NCBI GenBank assembly: GCA_964016885.1
Contig: OZ024760.1
Coordinates: 14,198,001 to 14,262,000 of the forward strand
Reading direction: 5' to 3'
Source of the DNA: Eledone cirrhosa
Lineage: Eukaryota
DNA length: 64,000 bases
This document shows, one piece after another, positions 3,322 to 62,170 of this stretch. The notes below the pieces were generated by a model, which had not been told where the DNA came from, did no database searches, and worked only from the letters and a program-made list of their open reading frames with translations. Positions within the stretch are counted from its first letter, which is position 1; the number at the start of each line of letters is the position of its first letter. The translations under genes were made by a program, and so were the position numbers.

Positions 3322-3425
3322 GTTTGTATAAGGAGAGAAAAGATACACGTAAGAATAGTGTGAGAAATATATATATATATACAATGATATTAAATAAATG
3401 GAAACTATATTTATAAAACCATATT

Positions 3426-3486
3426 TATTCTATTATATATATTTCAAGGGTACCAACATTTTGGTACACTATCATCAGATAAAATA
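3426..3486 (-). ncRNA. Type I minimal hammerhead ribozyme (family H1)
   Basis: Reverse complement: tattttat CTGATGA tagtgtaccaa-aatg-ttggtaccctt GAAA tatata TA atagaata. 8-bp stem I, gtaccaa/ttggtac stem II, palindromic helix III. Confidence 0.8.
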
Positions 3487-3730
3487 CGAAGTGTGTTTTA
3501 TAAATTTTGACATAGCCAAGAAGAATATACCTTAATGGTTCAAGTTATCCCTGGATAGTGAAGGGATAAGAGTAGAAAAGTCAGATATTTCAAATTATTA
3601 AGATGAGTATGCAAATGAGGTTTAGGTAGAAGATATAAAAGTTATGAATCAGTTATAACATTTATATTTGTTGAATTACCAACAAATTGAATATCCCTTC
3701 TGCTTATATATATATATATATATATAGAAA

Positions 3731-4292: not shown

Positions 4293-4601
4293 TGTATACA
4301 GACACATGCATACATATACATATATACATACATTCGTTACGAGATATTTTGCCACTACCAATTCTAATCTCATTTTAAGTCCCTTAAAACAGATGAATAT
4401 ATATATATATATATACATATACATACATACAGATACATACATATATACACACACACACATATATATACATACACACGTATATATGTGTATATCTATATTG
4501 ATATATATGTGCATGTATATATCTATGTGTGTGTATATATATGCATATTTGCATATGTATTTGTACATACACACACACATATATAATATATATATATCCC
4601 T

Positions 4602-4655
<54 letters not shown>

Positions 4656-4726
4656 AGACGTTAAATGATGATGAAACACGTATACACAGAAAGACAGATC
4701 TGTCTGTCTGTATATATGTATGTGTG

Positions 4727-4760
<34 letters not shown>

Positions 4761-5053
4761 CATATTTGTTTATACCCATGTTTATATCTAATTTTCAACT
4801 AGTGTTATTTCCCCAAGTAAACTTCATTAAGTAAATAAATAAGTAAACCAATAAATAAAAATTAAAATTAAAATGAAGAAAAAAAGTTTAAAAACAACAA
4901 CCAGAATTTCTCAACAATGTTGTGTGTGAAGTTTTTCCTCGTTAATTAAATCAGTGAAAGTTGTGACTTCATTAATATGAGATTTCAATTTCACAGTTTT
5001 TCTCTTTGTTTCAGGAAAGAAAGAGATCAGGTGAGCTGAGCTGATCCAAATGT

Positions 5054-5084
<31 letters not shown>

Positions 5085-5267
5085 AGTGATGGTGATGATG
5101 ATGATGATGGTGGTGGTGATGGTGGTGGTGATGGTGGTGATGGTGATGATGATGGTGATGATGGTGGTGATGATGGTGGTGGTGATGATGGTGGTGGTGG
5201 TGGTGATGGTGGTGGTGGTGATGATGATGATGGTGGTGGTGATGGTGGGGGTGGTAGTGATGATGAT

Positions 5268-5850
5268 TGTTTCTACTTTTGGCACAAGGCCTGTAATTTG
5301 AAGGGGAGGGGAAAGTCGATTAAATCGACCCCAGTACGTTACTGGTACTTTATTTTATCAACCCCGTAGGGATGAAAGGCAAAATTAACCTTGGCGGGAT
5401 TTGAACTCAGAATGGCAAGGGTCGTAACTCTGTGCTGCAAAGCATGACGTCAGACCCTCTACTGATACTGCCAATCCACCACCCTCCACCACCCCAATAA
5501 TAATAATAATAGTAATAGTAATATCAATGATGGTGATGATAATGATTTCCTTTCTAGGTCACATGACATTAGGGACAATTCAAGGGTGAAACAAAAAAAC
5601 AAAAACACAGCAACACAAAACAAAACAAAACAAAACAAAATAGAGTTTAGTTCGTAGCACAGGGGAGGGGGGGATCAACTCAATATAATAATAATTATTT
5701 CTACTTTTGGCACAAGGCCAGCAATTATCCCAGTGTATTACTGGTACTTTATTCTATCGACCCCGGGATTTGGACTCAGACCATAAAGGGACGTAACTAT
5801 GCTGGAAAGCATGGTGTCCGACTCTCTACTGATACTGCCAATCCACCGCC
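5268..5850 (-). mobile_element. SINE family A, two copies (5268-5480, 5695-5850)
   Basis: Reverse complement of the 9391 consensus. Confidence 0.85.
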
Positions 5851-7659
5851 ATAATAATAATAATAATAATAATAATACATCAATAATGAATAGTAATAGT
5901 AATAATAAAAGTAATCACAAGAACAACAGTAATAATACCATAACAAACAAGCTAAAAGTAAGGTATAGCTGTTGCATTTCCTATTTTGTCTTTTGTATTT
6001 TATATGTGAATATTTATTTAAAAAATCAATTGTAATTCAATTTTATGACCGGATCAGATTCTACCATCAATTTTTACACATTTCCTCACTCATACAGACA
6101 TATATATATATATATATATATACACATGTGTATATATATATGTATATATATATATATGTATATATATGTATATATATATATACATACTTGCACATACACA
6201 CACATACTCACATGAATATATACATATATATATATATATATATACGCATATATATACTTGCACATACACACATACATACAAACATACTCACATACATCCC
6301 CGCATGCACACAGCCACACATATTCATCCTCACAGACATATACATAAATATATATACTTGCACATACAAACATACCCACATGCATACAGACACGCATATA
6401 TATATATATATACTTGCACATACACACATACATACAAACATACTCACATACATACAGACACGCATATTCATCCTCACATACATATATATATATATATATA
6501 CTTGCACATACACACACATATACAATCATACTCACATACACGCACATACATACATATATATATATACATACATACATACATATACAGACACGCATACTCA
6601 TCCTCATGTACTTACAGGCACACACTCACACACACATACTTACAAGCACATACAGCCACACATACACACAGAATCCTACAAACACACTCTCATGCACATA
6701 TACATACCTACATACATACACATATACATACACACACTCAGATGTATACATTTAATACAAATTGACTTTTAAAAGTCTCCTAATTTTTTGGTTAGGCCCC
6801 CCCCCCCCTATCAATTGTATACATTTATATATAATAGCACACACACACACACACAATCACATACACACACACACACAATCACACACACACAAACACACTT
6901 CTATTATAAGAAATCTTTATTGACTTAAATATCAATATTTAGTCATGGTCGTTGTGTATATATGTACATATGTGTGTATATATGTATGTGTATATGTATG
7001 TGGGCATATGTATGTACATATGCGTGGGTGTATGAATGTGTATATATGTGTATATATATGTAGATATGTGTGGGAGTATGTACATATGAGTATATAGTGT
7101 ATTTATATGGGTATGTATATATATATATATGTGTATGTGTGTATCTATGTAAATATGTGTGGGAGTATGTACACATGAGTATATAGTGTATATATATAAA
7201 AATGTGGGTATGTATGTGTATATGTGTGTATCTATGTAAATATGTGTGGGAGTATGTACATATGTGTGTGTGTGGGTGTATGTATATGTGTGTATATATA
7301 TATGTGGATGGGTGTATGTGTGTATATATATATATATATATATTCATACACACATATATATATGTGTGTGTGTGTATGTATATATATATATATATATACA
7401 CACATGTGTGTGTATGTGTGTTTATGTGTATGGAGGTTTCTTAAGAGATTTATCTGAGTTCCTGGCAGAAGTCAAGCCGGTCACTGACAAAGTGACAAGA
7501 CTTTTTTGTTTAATCTCGACAGTTCTAGGGATTTGTAGACATCAGAGTCAGTTAATGTATTTATATGTGTGGCCATGTGTATGTGTGTATGCATACGTAT
7601 GTACATGTATGTATTTATGTATGTACATATGTACGAATGTATGCTTCAATGGATGTGTA

Positions 7660-30589: not shown

Positions 30590-30996
30590 TATTTACGTAT
30601 CGAGAAAGAGAAAAAAAGGGGGGATAGGTGATACATATAGTTATTTGCCAAGTAGCGTATGCCAAAGGTGCTCGATACTAGTGCCGGCAGTATTAAATAT
30701 TCGAAGTGTTAATATTTAGTGGGCTAGAGAGTTAGCAGAGCGTAAGCACGTGGGGAAGTAAAAAATCGGAGAATAGACCGTTAAAACATGTTTATTTAAA
30801 ATATCACCTACGTACGTTTCGCCCAGTTGGGCTTCTCAAGGGCATAAATAATCACAAGTGTTCCTTATATTGCTCGGAAAGAGTTTTTGGGGTTAAATCC
30901 ACATCAAGGTTCATTGCTCGCAAAAATATCTTGTTTTGATTTTGCAGCAGGTCAAGAGAGGTAACTCTGGCCGGTGTTAGGGCAGTTTTTCCCGGA

Positions 30997-31027
<31 letters not shown>

Positions 31028-31642
31028 GCCGCATCCGTTTGTCTGAGGCTGGGTCTGGTATGCAAGGATTGCTTCCTGGGTGTTATTTTGCAGCGCCTGC
31101 CCGCCGGGGTGTTAAGACTTGTTGCAGGGAGATCCAGTGTACTATTTCACTCTTCATCCTTAACCCATCTGAAGAAGGATATTTTTAAGCGATGTGTACA
31201 ACTTATCGCTTAAAAATATCCTTCTTCAGATCGGTTAAGGATGAAGAGTGAAATAGTACACTGGATTTCCCTGCAACAAGTCTTAACACCCCGGCGGGCA
31301 GGCGCTGCAAAATAACACCCAGGAAGCAATCCTTGCATACCAGACCCAGCCTCAGACAAACGGATGCGGCAAAAAAAAAAAAAAAAAAAAAAAATTTGTC
31401 CGGGAAAAACTGCCCTAACACCGGCCAGAGTTACCTCTCTTGACCTGTGGCAAAATCAAAACAAGATATTTTTGCGACCAATGAACCTTGATGTGGATTT
31501 AACCCCCAAAACTCTTTCCGAGCAATATAAGGAACACTTGTGATTATTTATGCCCTTGAGAAGCCCAACTGGGCGAAACGTACGTAGGTGATATTTTAAA
31601 TAAACATGTTTTAACGGTCTATTCTCCGATTTTTTACTTTCC
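30590..31642. mobile_element. Penelope-like/retrozyme-type insertion forming a ~880-bp near-perfect palindrome
   Basis: Arms about 30756-31193 and 31205-31639 with an 11-nt loop (gtgtacaactt), about 5 substitutions and a poly-T/A length difference. HHR in each arm, unpaired extension 30590-30755, flanked by TA/CA microsatellites. Confidence 0.75.
31549..31593 (+). ncRNA. Minimal hammerhead with U3/A8 core variant (UUGAGAA); mirror copy on the minus strand at about 30802-30846
   Basis: tatgccc TTGAGAA gccc-aact-gggc GAAAC gtac GTA ggtgata. The C3U+G8A changes keep the 3-8 pair. Helix III is palindromic (ACGTACGT). Stem I is weak. Confidence 0.7.
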
Positions 31643-31643
31643 T

Positions 31644-31706
<63 letters not shown>

Positions 31707-36360: not shown

Positions 36361-36504
36361 ATTCCACACACATCTACATATATATGCCTACACATTCATA
36401 TGCCTTCATAAATACATACATACATAAAGACAGATCTCTGAAGAAACAGCACACATATACCATATACACACACACATATATACATGCATCATCATCATCA
36501 TCTT

Positions 36505-36815
36505 ACATCCGCTTTTCCCTGCTTGCAAGGGTGGGACGGGAACTGATTCTGGCTTGATTTCTACAGCTGGATGCCCTTCCTAACACCAACCTCATTTACA
36601 GTGAGTGCTGGGTGCTTTTTTGCCGTGGCACCTCCACGACCACTTTGCTGTGGAATAATAGGGGCCCCAGTCCCTATCATCTCATTTCTACAGCTGAGTA
36701 AACTGGAGCAATGTGAAATAAAGTGTCTTGCTCAAGGAAACAACACAACACCCGGTCTGAGAATTGAACCCACAACATTTCGATTGCAAGGCCAATGCTC
36801 TAACCACTAAGCCAT
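36505..36815 (-). mobile_element. SINE family B composite, near-identical inverted copy of 42550-42870
   Basis: The ORF-track peptides 36571-36810 (+) and 42560-42799 (-) are almost identical, reflecting this DNA identity. Confidence 0.85.
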
Positions 36816-37297
36816 GTGGTTAGAGCATATATATATATACATATATGCAGGCACATACACATACACTCATACACACACACACAATCTGTATAAGACATCC
36901 ACAATTCTTGTATAAAACACACACACAATCTGTGTAGAAGACACATACATCTATATCTACACCACCACAAGACACACCCATTAGGTCTGTTTAACCCTGC
37001 AGTCACCCACATATCTAATTCTAATGAAATACACTATTTCTCTGTTTGAATTAAGTCTTGATAATTTTTTTAACATTTTGGAGAAGGTTTAGTAAAATAA
37101 CAAACTTAGTCGTTATTAAGCTGTTTGTCTGGAGAATAACAAAAGGTTCTTATGTGAAATTAAGAGTTAATGGAAATATAAACACATTAATTCCTTCATG
37201 TCCACATTTCTCTAATCAAATACAGAGTTTCAATTAATTAATGAAGAATTTTGAGGAATTTACTAAAATTATTAACTCTTTCATTACTAAGATAATA

Positions 37298-42441: not shown

Positions 42442-42549
42442 ATGTATGTGTATATATATGTGTGTGTGCGTATACATATGTGTGTATGTATATGTGTGTG
42501 TGTGTATATATATTTGTACATATATTAATATATATGTACATATGATGGA

Positions 42550-42870
42550 GGCACATGGCTTAGTGGTTAGAGCATTGGCCTTGCAATCGAAAGGTTGTGA
42601 GTTCAATTCTCAGACCGGGTGATGTGTTGTTTCCTTGAGCAAGAGACTTTATTTCACATTGCTCCAGTTTACTCAGCTGTAGAAATGAGATGATAGGGAC
42701 TGGGGTCTCTATCATTCCACTGCAAAGTGGTCGTGGAGGTGCCACGGCAAAAAAGCACCCAGCACTCACTGTAAATGAGGTTGGTGTTAGGAAGGGCATC
42801 CAGCTGTAGAAATCAAGCCAGAATCAGTTCCCGTCCCACCCTTGCAAGCAGGGAAAAGCGGATGTAAAAT
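42550..42870 (+). mobile_element. tRNA-derived SINE family B, composite with …ggaagggcatccagctgtagaaa… domain and (ATG/TGAAA)n tail
   Basis: A box TGGCTTAGTGG, B box GAGTTCAATTC, ccttgagcaaga.actttatttcacattgctccag. Other copies at 8720-8885, 21655-21830 and 45668-45960 (plus), and 9258-9335, 13730-13968, 36505-36815, 56835-56950 and 60065-60210 (minus). Confidence 0.8.
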
Positions 42871-43285
42871 GAAATGAAATGAAATGAAATGAAATGAAAT
42901 GATATATATAAATATATATATATGTGTATATATGTATATATATATATAAGTACACATATTTTATCCAGATCAATCTCTTAAGATCTCACCTGTATATCCT
43001 TCAAATCTCTCTCTCATTCTCTCTTTCTCATTTTCTCCCTTTGTATTTATATATATATAATATATATATATATATATTAATATATATATATATATGTATA
43101 CGTACATACATATATGTATACAGACGTACAGTAGTATGTATATATATACATACATGCATGTATCGGTTTACCGAACATTTATTATAATGCTCGGTTTGTT
43201 TGTTTGTAAACAAACAAACAGCCCGAATTACGCCATACAGTGTTTAGGCAACCACGTCACCTTTTTGTTCAACACTGACACAGGA

Positions 43286-43328: not shown

Positions 43329-43694
43329 ATACCTTTCTGCCAGATGGTTGAACGTCTGAAAGTATATACTTTCCTTATGCATATTAACGGCTGAGCAGCC
43401 TAATTTGCATATCGAGTGAATTCAGTCGGCCGGGCACACCGAAAACGATAAATGGAATAGAATGAAACAAAATTTCATTTCTCACTTTTAGTACGGCATG
43501 TATATATATATATACATACTACTGTACGTCTGTATACATATATGTATGTACGTATACATACATACTTACATTTAAGTAAGTGCCGTACTAAGAGTGAGAA
43601 ATGAAATTTCGTTTCATTCTATTATATATATATATATATATACCATGACTGAATTATAACCATCAACATAGTCAAGGTATGTCAGGCATCAACT

Positions 43695-43800: not shown

Positions 43801-43872
<72 letters not shown>

Positions 43873-43881
<9 letters not shown>

Positions 43882-44186
43882 ATGAAGTTGGAAATAGCAT
43901 GGGAGATATGTTTAAGGGTCTGTTTTTCTTTTTTGATTCGTCAAAGTGAGAATAAAGAAGAGATTGTGTTATTAAAAAAAGAGGGACAATTCTTTTTTGA
44001 AAATTCTTTTTATATACTTCATAAAAAAATTTTCAAAAAAGAATTGTCCCTCTTTTTTTAATAACAATCTTTTCTTTAATGTCACTTTGACGAATCAAAA
44101 AAGAAAAACAGACCCTTAAACATATCTCCCGTGCTATTTCCAACTTCATCTTTTCTCTATACCCACTGTTTTGTATAGAACCTCAC

Positions 44187-44187
<1 letters not shown>
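43873..44187. repeat. ~140-bp-arm inverted repeat between (GA)n and (TA)n
   Basis: 43873-44010 is the reverse complement of about 44022-44158, with a short one-sided tail. No clear HHR core. Confidence 0.75.
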
Positions 44188-44218
<31 letters not shown>

Positions 44219-51829: not shown

Positions 51830-51897
51830 ACCACCAGCCCCATATATATATATATATATATAATATAAGATCAAAAGATGGTTAAAAGAGTTCCATG

Positions 51898-51965
51898 TAT
51901 TTTATTATGCGCATTTCAAAAACAAATATCATCATGGGATATTTGCGTTCTCATCAGATAAAATA
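51898..51965 (-). ncRNA. Hammerhead ribozyme (family H1), left arm of an inverted repeat
   Basis: Reverse complement: tattttat CTGATGA gaacgcaaatatc...gatatttgttttt GAAA tgcgca TA ataaaata. Confidence 0.82.
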
Positions 51966-52455
51966 GGGAGACATGATATGAAGCTTAAAAAACACTTGCG
52001 AGCAGTGAAGTGTTAAATCAACATATGAAAAATAAAATATGATGGATATGTGAGATTGGGGAAAAAAAAAAGGAGGAAGGGGGAAGGAAAAAGTAAGGAA
52101 GAGGAAGAAAGAAAATAAAGGATGACGGGGGAGGAGTATAAGAAGGAAGGATGAGAGAGGAGGAGAAATGAGTGAGAGAGAGAGATAGCCTTTAATACTG
52201 AGAAACACTATCTCACAGAGAGAAATAAAAAAACCGTTGTAAGATAATACATAATTTTAAAAAATTTTGAAATTAAAAGTTAATGAGCTTTATGAATGGT
52301 GATGTTTATGATTAAAGAAAAAGGAATTAAGAATAGTATTTATTTAAGGTTTATATATTGAAGGGTTTAATAATATGTGCGAAAAGGAATTTATTAATAT
52401 GTATTATTAAAATAAAAATATTAAGGAGATAAGGTGAATGAAGAAGAAATTAAAT

Positions 52456-52526
52456 TATTTTATCTGATGAGAACGCAAATATCATCCCATGATGATATTT
52501 GTTTTTGAAATGCGCATAATAAAATA
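52456..52526 (+). ncRNA. Hammerhead ribozyme (family H1), right arm of an inverted repeat
   Basis: tattttat CTGATGA gaac-gcaaatatcatc-ccat-gatgatatttgt-tttt GAAA tgcgca TA ataaaata. Palindromic TGCGCA helix III. Confidence 0.85.
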
Positions 52527-52945
52527 CATGGAACTCTTTTAACCATCTTTTGATCTTATATTATCTATACTCCAGTCCTATAAACTGTTGAGTGCTACTT
52601 ATCCGATATTTGCATTGCTTTATTGTGCTTCAATAAAACTCACCTCCATTATATATATATATAAAGTCAGGTCAGATCAAAGGAACAGACATTGTCATAC
52701 TAGAGGCTATATGGTTGTGCTACTGTGTATGTGTGTGTGACTGTAACTTCTAGTGTGAACGCTAGTGTATGTGTGTTAGTATGCGAGTGTGTGTGTGTGT
52801 CAGTGTTAGTATGAGTGTGTGTGTGTGTGTGTGTCACTAAGTTATTAACACCATCTGTTGAACAATCTGTCTCAGATGAGAGAATCTATACCACCGTGTG
52901 TTATCTCTTGGATCTTTTTGAGTGTGTGTACACACACACACACAC

Positions 52946-61719: not shown

Positions 61720-61753
<34 letters not shown>

Positions 61754-61791
61754 ATAAAGATGAAATAAAAGATGGTTATAAGAGTTCCATA

Positions 61792-61856
61792 TATTTTATT
61801 ATACGTATTTCGAATACAAAATCATCAAAGATATTATGTTCTCTTCATATAAAATA
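61792..61856 (-). ncRNA. Decayed hammerhead (family H1, C3A)
   Basis: Reverse complement: tattttat ATGAAGA gaacat...gtattc GAAA tacgta TA ataaaata. Confidence 0.6.
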
Positions 61857-61932
61857 AGTGCTAAGTCTACTTATATGTAGACTTAGCACTTTCCTATAAA
61901 CAAGTGCTATTATGCCTCATATCATTGTACCT

Positions 61933-61994
61933 TATTTCATCTGACGAGAACATATCTTTGATGATTTTATATTCAAAATACGTATAATAAAATA
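61933..61994 (+). ncRNA. Decayed hammerhead (family H1, G12A)
   Basis: tatttcat CTGACGA gaacatatc...tatattc AAAA tacgta TA ataaaata. Palindromic TACGTA helix III. Confidence 0.62.
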
Positions 61995-62103
61995 TATAGA
62001 ACTCTTATGACCATCTTTTATATATATACTCCAGTTCTACCAACTGTTGAGTGCTACTTATCTGATATATGCATAGTTTTATTGTTCTACAATATTACTC
62101 ACC

Positions 62104-62170
<67 letters not shown>

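What the first reader, a model, noticed from the sequence alone, without database searches (positions are those of the whole stretch)
51861..52650. Family H1 element with inverted HHR-bearing termini and a one-sided tail; sister copy at 61752-62107
Both loci share the architecture (TA)n - inverted partial 3' end - spacer - HHR - tail(…gagtgctacttatc…) - (TA)n, but have different spacers and stem II sequences. Within each locus the two arms share private features (TGCGCA versus TACGTA helix III). This suggests the inversion is created anew at each insertion from a single template. Stem I tattttat/ataaaata is shared with the solo HHRs at 3426 and 43695.
Basis: partly seen in the sequence, partly recalled or inferred. 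Interest (0 to 1): 0.7.

Follow-up and report, generated by a model that had tools for sequence, protein, structure and literature searches.

The report
Two-armed Hydra-type Penelope retroelement insertion
This mirror-image stretch is a shortened copy of an abundant Penelope-like jumping gene in a back-to-back layout already described for this group; nearly every such insertion has a tail on exactly one arm, likely because the copying enzyme starts at two fixed points on one RNA.

Summary
The 'spacer' 51966-52455 is the element's 3' UTR in reverse, so it belongs to the left arm. Both loci are two 5'-truncated copies joined head to head in (TA)n. The parent is an abundant Penelope-like retroelement: about 820 codons, telomerase-like RT, C-terminal GIY-YIG fold, Hydra-clade motifs, type I hammerhead. 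An inverted truncated copy with a one-sided tail is the published PLE layout, recorded for the Hydra clade too.

Arms within a locus are closer than arms between loci, arms do not group by side, and breakpoints vary, so these are not DNA-transposon TIRs.

Added here: the roughly 85-nt tail sits on exactly one arm in 22 of 22 long and 53 of 55 short classifiable insertions. Either arm can be longer, which rules out simple fold-back. 5' ends pile up about 123 nt before the ribozyme cut, not at it.

Likely mechanism (inferred): both target ends prime cDNA at two fixed sites on one RNA. This scan found the same layout and mechanism before on other DNA of this genome. A new family of a known kind; modest interest.

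The parts
51842..51861 (.). (TA)n target run, left side; merges with the arm's own TA-rich end
51860..52455 (-). Long, tail-less arm: 5'-truncated copy running from about -572 (position in copy L033) to about +46 relative to the ribozyme cut
51966..52455 (-).
51898..51965 (-). Type I hammerhead of the left arm; core intact, 3-nt deletion in stem II; predicted cut between 51906 and 51905
52455..52456 (.). Head-to-head junction, about blunt; the right arm begins at the 5' edge of stem I (-63)
52456..52647 (+). Short, tailed arm (-63 to about +130)
52456..52526 (+). Type I hammerhead with palindromic helix III (TGCGCA); predicted cut after 52518
52565..52647 (+). Tail of about 85 nt; in full-length copies it is the leader between the hammerhead and the ORF, ending about 80 nt before the ATG at +213
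52569..52593 (+). Bulged hairpin at the start of the tail (ACTC-CAGT / ACTG-NN-GAGT); role as a start signal untested
52648..52663 (.). (TA)n target run, right side
61752..61870 (-). Sister copy (B subfamily): tail-less arm with an internal deletion of about 40 nt and a mutated hammerhead core
61873..62107 (+). Sister copy: tailed arm, starting at the ATATG 5'-end hotspot; hammerhead at 61933-61994 with GAAA changed to CAAA

Best explanation
The locus is one insertion of a Hydra-type Penelope-like retroelement made of two 5'-truncated copies joined head to head, likely because the element's endonuclease opens a (TA)n run and each of the two DNA ends primes reverse transcription at a different fixed site on the same RNA.

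Shown: the identity of the parent, the two fixed 3' ends (about +46 and +132 from the ribozyme cut), the one-tail rule, the shared variants of the two arms, the variable junctions.

Inferred: one cDNA starts at +132 and carries the tail; the other starts at the TA-rich site near +46 and lacks it. Each stops at a variable point. Their ends are joined by short microhomology, bluntly or with filler, and filled in. If only one cDNA is captured, a one-armed copy with either end results. The pile-up of 5' ends near -123 likely marks the RNA's own start, so short copies would come from starts at the first pair of sites, near the RNA's 5' end. The hammerhead is predicted to act as a dimer and does not set the inversion point.
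For: Parent. The tailed arm has 1235 first-look candidates in the own genome, top 40 at 98-100%. Upstream of the 'spacer', other copies run into an EN reading frame, and L037 also into an RT piece. Copies with frames of about 820 codons carry the same hammerhead and tail. The predicted fold's top five PDB matches are telomerase RTs (E 1.8e-8 to 3.4e-7). The C-terminal domain matches I-TevI (Z 9.9, rmsd 2.4, 89 of 92 residues), followed by further GIY-YIG folds.

One-tail rule. Long copies: 22 of 22 with both ends readable (16 with the tail on the inverted arm, 6 on the main arm; Fisher p 1.3e-5), while 40 classifiable copies without an inverted arm split 20/20. Short copies found without tail in the query: 27 one-tail, 1 no-tail, 0 two-tail, 3 unclear. 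Found with tail in the query: 26 one-tail, 1 two-tail, 3 unclear.

Shared source. Within-locus distances are lower; 13 of 23 B-type doubleton variants fall within one locus (chance 3%); a C/T site with T in 18 of 46 arms agrees in 21 of 23 A loci (counted by eye). A 5-nt stem II deletion stands in both arms of the window's sister copy and in 1 other of 63 arms.

Not fold-back. In the window neither arm is nested in the other, and the tail-less arm is the longer one in 16 of 22 long and 10 of 26 tail-query short insertions. Junction overlaps of 1-7 nt occur in 16 of 33 A loci. Precedent: a purified PLE protein cuts and extends both strands and starts at two internal RNA sites that bracket the tail (PMC11167929).
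Against: No intermediate was observed; all is read from genomic products. Two A loci disagree at the C/T site, and L137 and L143 pair arms of different types (L143 has a 275-nt gap and may be two insertions). One two-tail and one no-tail pair exist. Shared variants also fit two RNAs from one source or later gene conversion between arms. The loci are the best-scoring hits of five queries, not a random sample, and one B query spans a junction and so enriches for two-armed loci. Ends were read from BLAST limits, which blur in TA runs (+41 to +51). Many pLTRs extend far beyond -123 (14 of 48 A arms), which needs longer or circular templates. Published views differ: self-priming on an antisense template (PMC3846280) and EN resolution of an intermediate (PMC8557442).
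Confidence: 0.62

Rival explanations
1. A self-primed hairpin or longer DNA intermediate forms first, both arms reach +132, and the endonuclease trims one arm at its own TA-rich site near +46 during integration.
For: Proposed in outline in PMC8557442 (tail from EN resolution) and PMC3846280 (self-priming). The +42 to +50 stretch resembles the (TA)n target. It predicts identical arms. 8 of 53 short one-tail insertions have near-equal breakpoints, some perfect palindromes.
Against: It needs exactly one trimmed end almost every time, on either the long or the short arm. One-armed copies also end at either site, 20/20. A related PLE protein starts cDNA at two internal sites in vitro.
Confidence: 0.22
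2. Each target end is primed on a separate RNA bound by one subunit of a dimer; the arms look alike because both RNAs come from the same active source locus, or because they were homogenised later.
For: The PLE protein is predicted to be a dimer. Discordant arms exist (L002, L027, L137, L143).
Against: Independent RNAs should give two-tail and no-tail pairs often unless the dimer is asymmetric; 2 of 77 classifiable pairs are such. Near-private variants are shared by both arms.
Confidence: 0.13
3. A non-autonomous DNA transposon (MITE-like) with fixed terminal inverted repeats.
For: Short copies look like hairpins of 250-350 bp in TA.
Against: Inner breakpoints vary over hundreds of bases, arms do not cluster by side, the ends are asymmetric, and the sequence is the pLTR of an RT/GIY-YIG element.
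Confidence: 0.02

Closest known systems
Hydra clade of C-terminal EN+ Penelope-like elements (Craig et al. 2021, PMC8557442; e.g. Hydra-1_Obim, Penelope-13_HM)
   Same: Single ORF with RT and C-terminal GIY-YIG; DKT; CxCx5C linker; CxxC..E..N..CxH; no CCHH; canonical hammerhead; (TA)n targets. File S1 notes a 5'-truncated inverted copy on Penelope-13_HM. The RT blocks match the published Hydra alignment by eye.
   Different: Unit of 3854 nt with a 3' UTR of about 1 kb and an N-rich linker, against 'generally <3 kb'; RWK reads RWT/RWI; long stem II and 8-bp stem I; the hammerhead differs from that of Hydra-1_oBim, so it is another family.
General EN+ PLE layout: inverted 5'-truncated pLTR and one-sided 30-40-bp tail (PMC8557442 Fig. 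2 legend; PMC3846280; PMC2377424 Fig. 1C legend)
   Same: Head-to-head inverted truncated copy, tail on one end, microsatellite target without a readable TSD. Paired hammerheads 100-700 bp apart on opposite strands were reported in Schistosoma (PMC4209133).
   Different: The tail is about 85 nt and lies wholly before the ATG. It is not merely 'often' one-sided but strictly complementary between arms. There is a 5'-end hotspot near -123.
Poseidon_Ac internal RT initiation (Frangieh et al. 2024, PMC11167929)
   Same: Two fixed ends bracketing the tail, downstream of the hammerhead; AT-rich target; AC-rich sequence at the tailed end.
   Different: There the sites lie inside the ORF and were shown in vitro; here they are in the leader and inferred from genomic ends. 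The parts read do not link the two starts to the inverted arm.
LINE-1 twin priming (recalled, not from a call)
   Same: Both target strands prime cDNA on one RNA and give a 5' inversion joined by microhomology.
   Different: L1 inversions split one stretch at a chance internal site with little overlap; here both start sites are fixed and the arms duplicate the same region.

Membership tests
EN+ Penelope-like elements | Single ORF with telomerase-related RT | tested here: met
   821-codon open frame in L101; top five fold matches are TERTs. Pfam gave no RT hit.
EN+ Penelope-like elements | GIY-YIG endonuclease domain | tested here: met
   C-terminal domain to I-TevI Z 9.9, rmsd 2.4, 89 aligned; Foldseek alone gave no match at E <= 0.001.
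EN+ Penelope-like elements | pLTRs from partial tandems, direct or inverted, with a tail at one end | tested here: met
   Direct pLTRs in L091, L099, L101, L102; inverted arms in 26 of 71 long copies.
EN+ Penelope-like elements | Type I hammerhead in the pLTR with palindromic helix III | tested here: met
   Motif scan; palindromes TGCGCA and TACGTA dominate. Rfam gathering threshold not reached. Cleavage not assayed.
Hydra clade | DKT in place of DKG | tested here: met
   HSDKTNN in L101.
Hydra clade | CxCX5C linker; CxxC and CxH flanking the conserved E and N; no CCHH | tested here: met
   CNCRIKNKC, CNLC..E..N..CLH; invariant in 13 aligned sequences. No cysteine pair between the GIY and YIG equivalents.
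Hydra clade | N-terminal RWK motif | tested here: inconclusive
   RW is present; the third residue is T or I here and K in most homologs.
Hydra clade | Insertion into (TA)n | tested here: met
   TA run at 145 of 167 outer arm ends; most others CA or CT runs. The tail-less end is itself TA-rich, which inflates the count.
Hydra clade | Placement inside the Hydra clade in an RT tree | not tested
   Named reference proteins were seen only as text in a supplement and compared by eye.
Non-LTR retrozyme | Short non-coding hammerhead-bearing units in head-to-tail tandem | tested here: not met
   The unit is 3854 nt and codes for RT/EN; the window copies are head to head.
MITE / TIR DNA transposon | Fixed terminal inverted repeats and fixed internal structure shared by copies | tested here: not met
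   Variable breakpoints, asymmetric ends, no clustering by side.

The most novel reading that the evidence does not exclude
A Penelope-type RT dimer loads one RNA at two fixed start sites about 85 nt apart, each just before a small bulged hairpin, and copies it twice at once from both ends of a cut (TA)n. That single rule would explain the inverted pLTR, the tail, the one-tail rule and the mass of MITE-like hairpins that stop at the RNA's start near -123. This young family with intact ORFs would be a ready system to test it.
Probability: 0.45. Interest if true: 0.58.

Novelty: new member of a known kind. Interest (0 to 1): 0.3.

Why it matters
The layout is known, but how PLEs make their tandem and inverted ends is named as an open task in PMC8557442. 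Counts from this family narrow the options: one tail per insertion, arms from one source, either arm longer, breakpoints not at the ribozyme cut. They fit the two start sites seen in vitro for another clade. The family is young and has many intact frames, so the test is practical. For annotation, such short hairpin copies can be misfiled as MITEs or SINEs.

Tried and rejected
Rfam at gathering threshold: 0 matches in the window. Pfam on ORF pieces and on the whole ORF, and PDB by sequence: nothing significant; the fold searches were needed.

Spacer as an endonuclease remnant: rejected (no tblastn hit; longest stop-free frame 97 codons).

Ribozyme cut as the breakpoint: rejected as the main rule. 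A weak excess remains at -16 to +2 for inverted arms of long copies (6 of 23, p 0.001, window chosen after seeing the data), which may reflect the helix III palindrome.

A splice acceptor at -123: rejected by eye because the AG is not kept in many A-type and in C-type copies. No added G at the -123 ends was apparent.

Second hairpin behind the tailed end: only the outer stem is clear, and it does not appear in the minimum-energy fold; inconclusive.

RNA evidence: no RNA holder listed, so the RNA start, cleavage and circles were not tested and no reads were laid.

Earlier-findings search by sequence: nothing. The repeat finder was swamped by microsatellites.

Full report
OBSERVATION. Between two (TA)n runs the window holds inverted arms at 51855-51965 and 52456-52563, 96-97% identical. 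Each has a type I hammerhead with stem I TATTTTAT/ATAAAATA, core CTGATGA...GAAA, palindromic helix III TGCGCA and a predicted cut after ATA. Only the right arm continues into the tail. The copy at 61752-62107 has the same plan at 77% identity, with damaged cores in both arms and a deletion of about 40 nt in the left arm. Positions below are counted from the ribozyme cut (+1 = 52519).

WHAT IT IS. A search of the own genome with the tailed arm gave 1235 candidates; 40 were scored and 30 fetched. It is therefore the 3' part of the element, and the window locus is a long tail-less arm (-572 to about +46, minus strand) joined about bluntly to a short tailed arm (-63 to about +130). Further upstream, ten extended loci showed an endonuclease frame in several and an RT piece in L032 and L037. 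A protein search gave 48,330 candidates and 103 scored hits, many with open frames near 820 codons. I fetched 72 of the 103. In the 12 examined first, 10 had the same hammerhead by motif scan; the unit in L102 is 3854 nt, with the tail ending at +132 and the ATG at +213. The predicted structure (mean pLDDT 75.8) matches telomerase RTs best. The C-terminal domain matches GIY-YIG nucleases, I-TevI first (Z 9.9). DKT, CxCx5C, CxxC..E..N..CxH and the lack of CCHH are the Hydra-clade marks listed in PMC8557442; RWK is only partly kept, and no tree was built.

For loci where both arms cover the hammerhead (23 A-type, 18 B-type; the window's sister copy was left out because of its deletion), within-locus distance is 0.023 and 0.063. 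Between loci it is 0.031 and 0.117 for arms of the same side, 0.033 and 0.120 for opposite sides; permutation p = 0.0002. So arms group by locus, not by side. In B, the nearest neighbour is the own partner for 16 of 36 arms (2 more tied); in the very young A set for 1 of 46 (15 tied). Against a single template: two A loci differ at a common C/T site, and L137 and L143 join unlike arms. The TGCGCA/TACGTA difference is a subfamily state, but a 5-nt deletion is shared by both arms of the sister copy and only 1 other of 63 arms.

ONE-TAIL RULE. Of 72 long loci, one likely duplicate was dropped. 26 of 71 have an inverted arm; in the 22 with both ends readable, exactly one end is tailed (16 and 6; p 1.3e-5). 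The other 45 end tailed 20 times, tail-less 20 times, 5 unread. Of 120 short loci, 7 duplicates were dropped. Among 54 found without tail in the query, 31 are two-armed: 27 one-tail, 1 no-tail, 3 unclear. Among 59 found with tail in the query, 30 are two-armed: 26 one-tail, 1 two-tail, 3 unclear. These are top-ranked hits, not a random sample.

BREAKPOINTS. Inner ends vary over hundreds of bases. Of 33 A junctions, 16 overlap by 1-7 nt, 3 are blunt, 4 have 1-6 extra bases and 10 have 11-134. Only 3 of 73 long-copy 5' ends lie within 2 nt of the ribozyme cut. In the A tail-query set, 17 of the 30 ends between -125 and -64 fall at -125 to -119 (p 2e-9 against uniform), at the A of TCATATG, where A, B and C-type copies begin to resemble each other; 14 of 48 arms pass beyond. 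B copies stop at the same motif. An RNA start is my reading; a palindrome or TA-like microhomology could also cause it. Long copies show an excess of 5' ends at +110 to +160 (14 of 50, p 2e-5, window chosen afterwards), which fits a block at the upstream start site on a tandem or circular RNA.

MECHANISM. A fold-back copy must be nested in the first cDNA. In the window neither arm is nested in the other, and the tail-less arm is the longer one in 16 of 22 long insertions. So two cDNAs, or a longer intermediate that is trimmed, are needed. PMC11167929 shows for another PLE that both strands are cut and extended and that RT starts at two internal sites bracketing the tail. Joining this to the one-tail rule and the shared variants gives the best explanation (0.62): two starts on one RNA, one from each target end. 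Trimming of a hairpin intermediate (0.22) and two RNAs (0.13) remain.

WHAT IS KNOWN. The inverted truncated copy and one-sided tail are described as typical (PMC8557442; PMC3846280; PMC2377424); a Hydra-clade case is listed; opposite-strand hammerhead pairs were reported (PMC4209133). Six searches found no paper stating a strict one-tail rule or two starts on one RNA as the cause of the inversion. The library lacks most subscription journals, including the 2005 and 2006 papers that defined the tail, which I did not see. Seen: PMC8557442 abstract, passages, sections 3, 11, 12, supplement part 2 of 59 and search hits; PMC11167929 and PMC4209133 parts 1-2 of 4; bioRxiv 10.64898/2026.07.22.740005 part 1 of 5; passages of PMC2377424, PMC3846280 and PMC13282606. 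L1 twin priming is recalled. Earlier notes of this scan report the same layout and two-start reading for other families of this genome; they are not independent support. One gave the hairpin lead: a bulged hairpin at +51 to +75 keeps its inner four pairs in 154 of 162 motif-matched arms (overlapping loci included, no compensatory change seen), while the second near +141 is unclear. One note calls the host an octopus; I did not test this.

VERDICT. Real feature; a new family of the known Hydra-type PLEs in a known layout, with useful counts for an open mechanism. Interest 0.3.

Noticed in passing
window 3381-3710: The 'solo' hammerhead at 3426 seems to be a two-armed insertion of another family: a long tail-less arm on the minus strand and about 65 nt of that family's tail on the plus strand. 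Its tail in L012 also begins with an ACTCCAG...GAGTGCT hairpin-like stretch.
   Followed up: partly
window 23699 (-), 43322 (-), 43703 (+), 46141 (+): Four further type I hammerheads of other families with palindromic helix III (TATATA, CTAG, TATGTA).
   Followed up: no
window 43870-44190 and 43440-43630: Further inverted repeats bounded by (GA)n/(TA)n runs, probably truncated two-armed insertions of other families.
   Followed up: no
window 30750-31645: Near-perfect palindrome of about 900 bp with internal poly(T)/poly(A) runs, ending at a (TA)n run.
   Followed up: no
window 36498-36883 and 42487-42872: 386-nt inverted repeat, 92% complementary, 5.6 kb apart.
   Followed up: no
L031:3-2403: A second, more distant Hydra-type ORF (43% identity to L101 over the aligned part) with a long N-rich linker, followed by an inverted array of about 310-bp units at 4303-6951.
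   Followed up: no
L034 (minus strand 6993-6580): Another Hydra-type endonuclease remnant (CxCx5C, CxxC..E) of a different family.
   Followed up: no
L012, L064, L069, L158-L160: Copies of different hammerhead families sit side by side or nested in the same (TA)n run, so insertions pile up in earlier targets.
   Followed up: no
L158, L159, L160; L170, L171: Near-identical breakpoints on one contig, probably segmental duplicates; counted once.
   Followed up: partly
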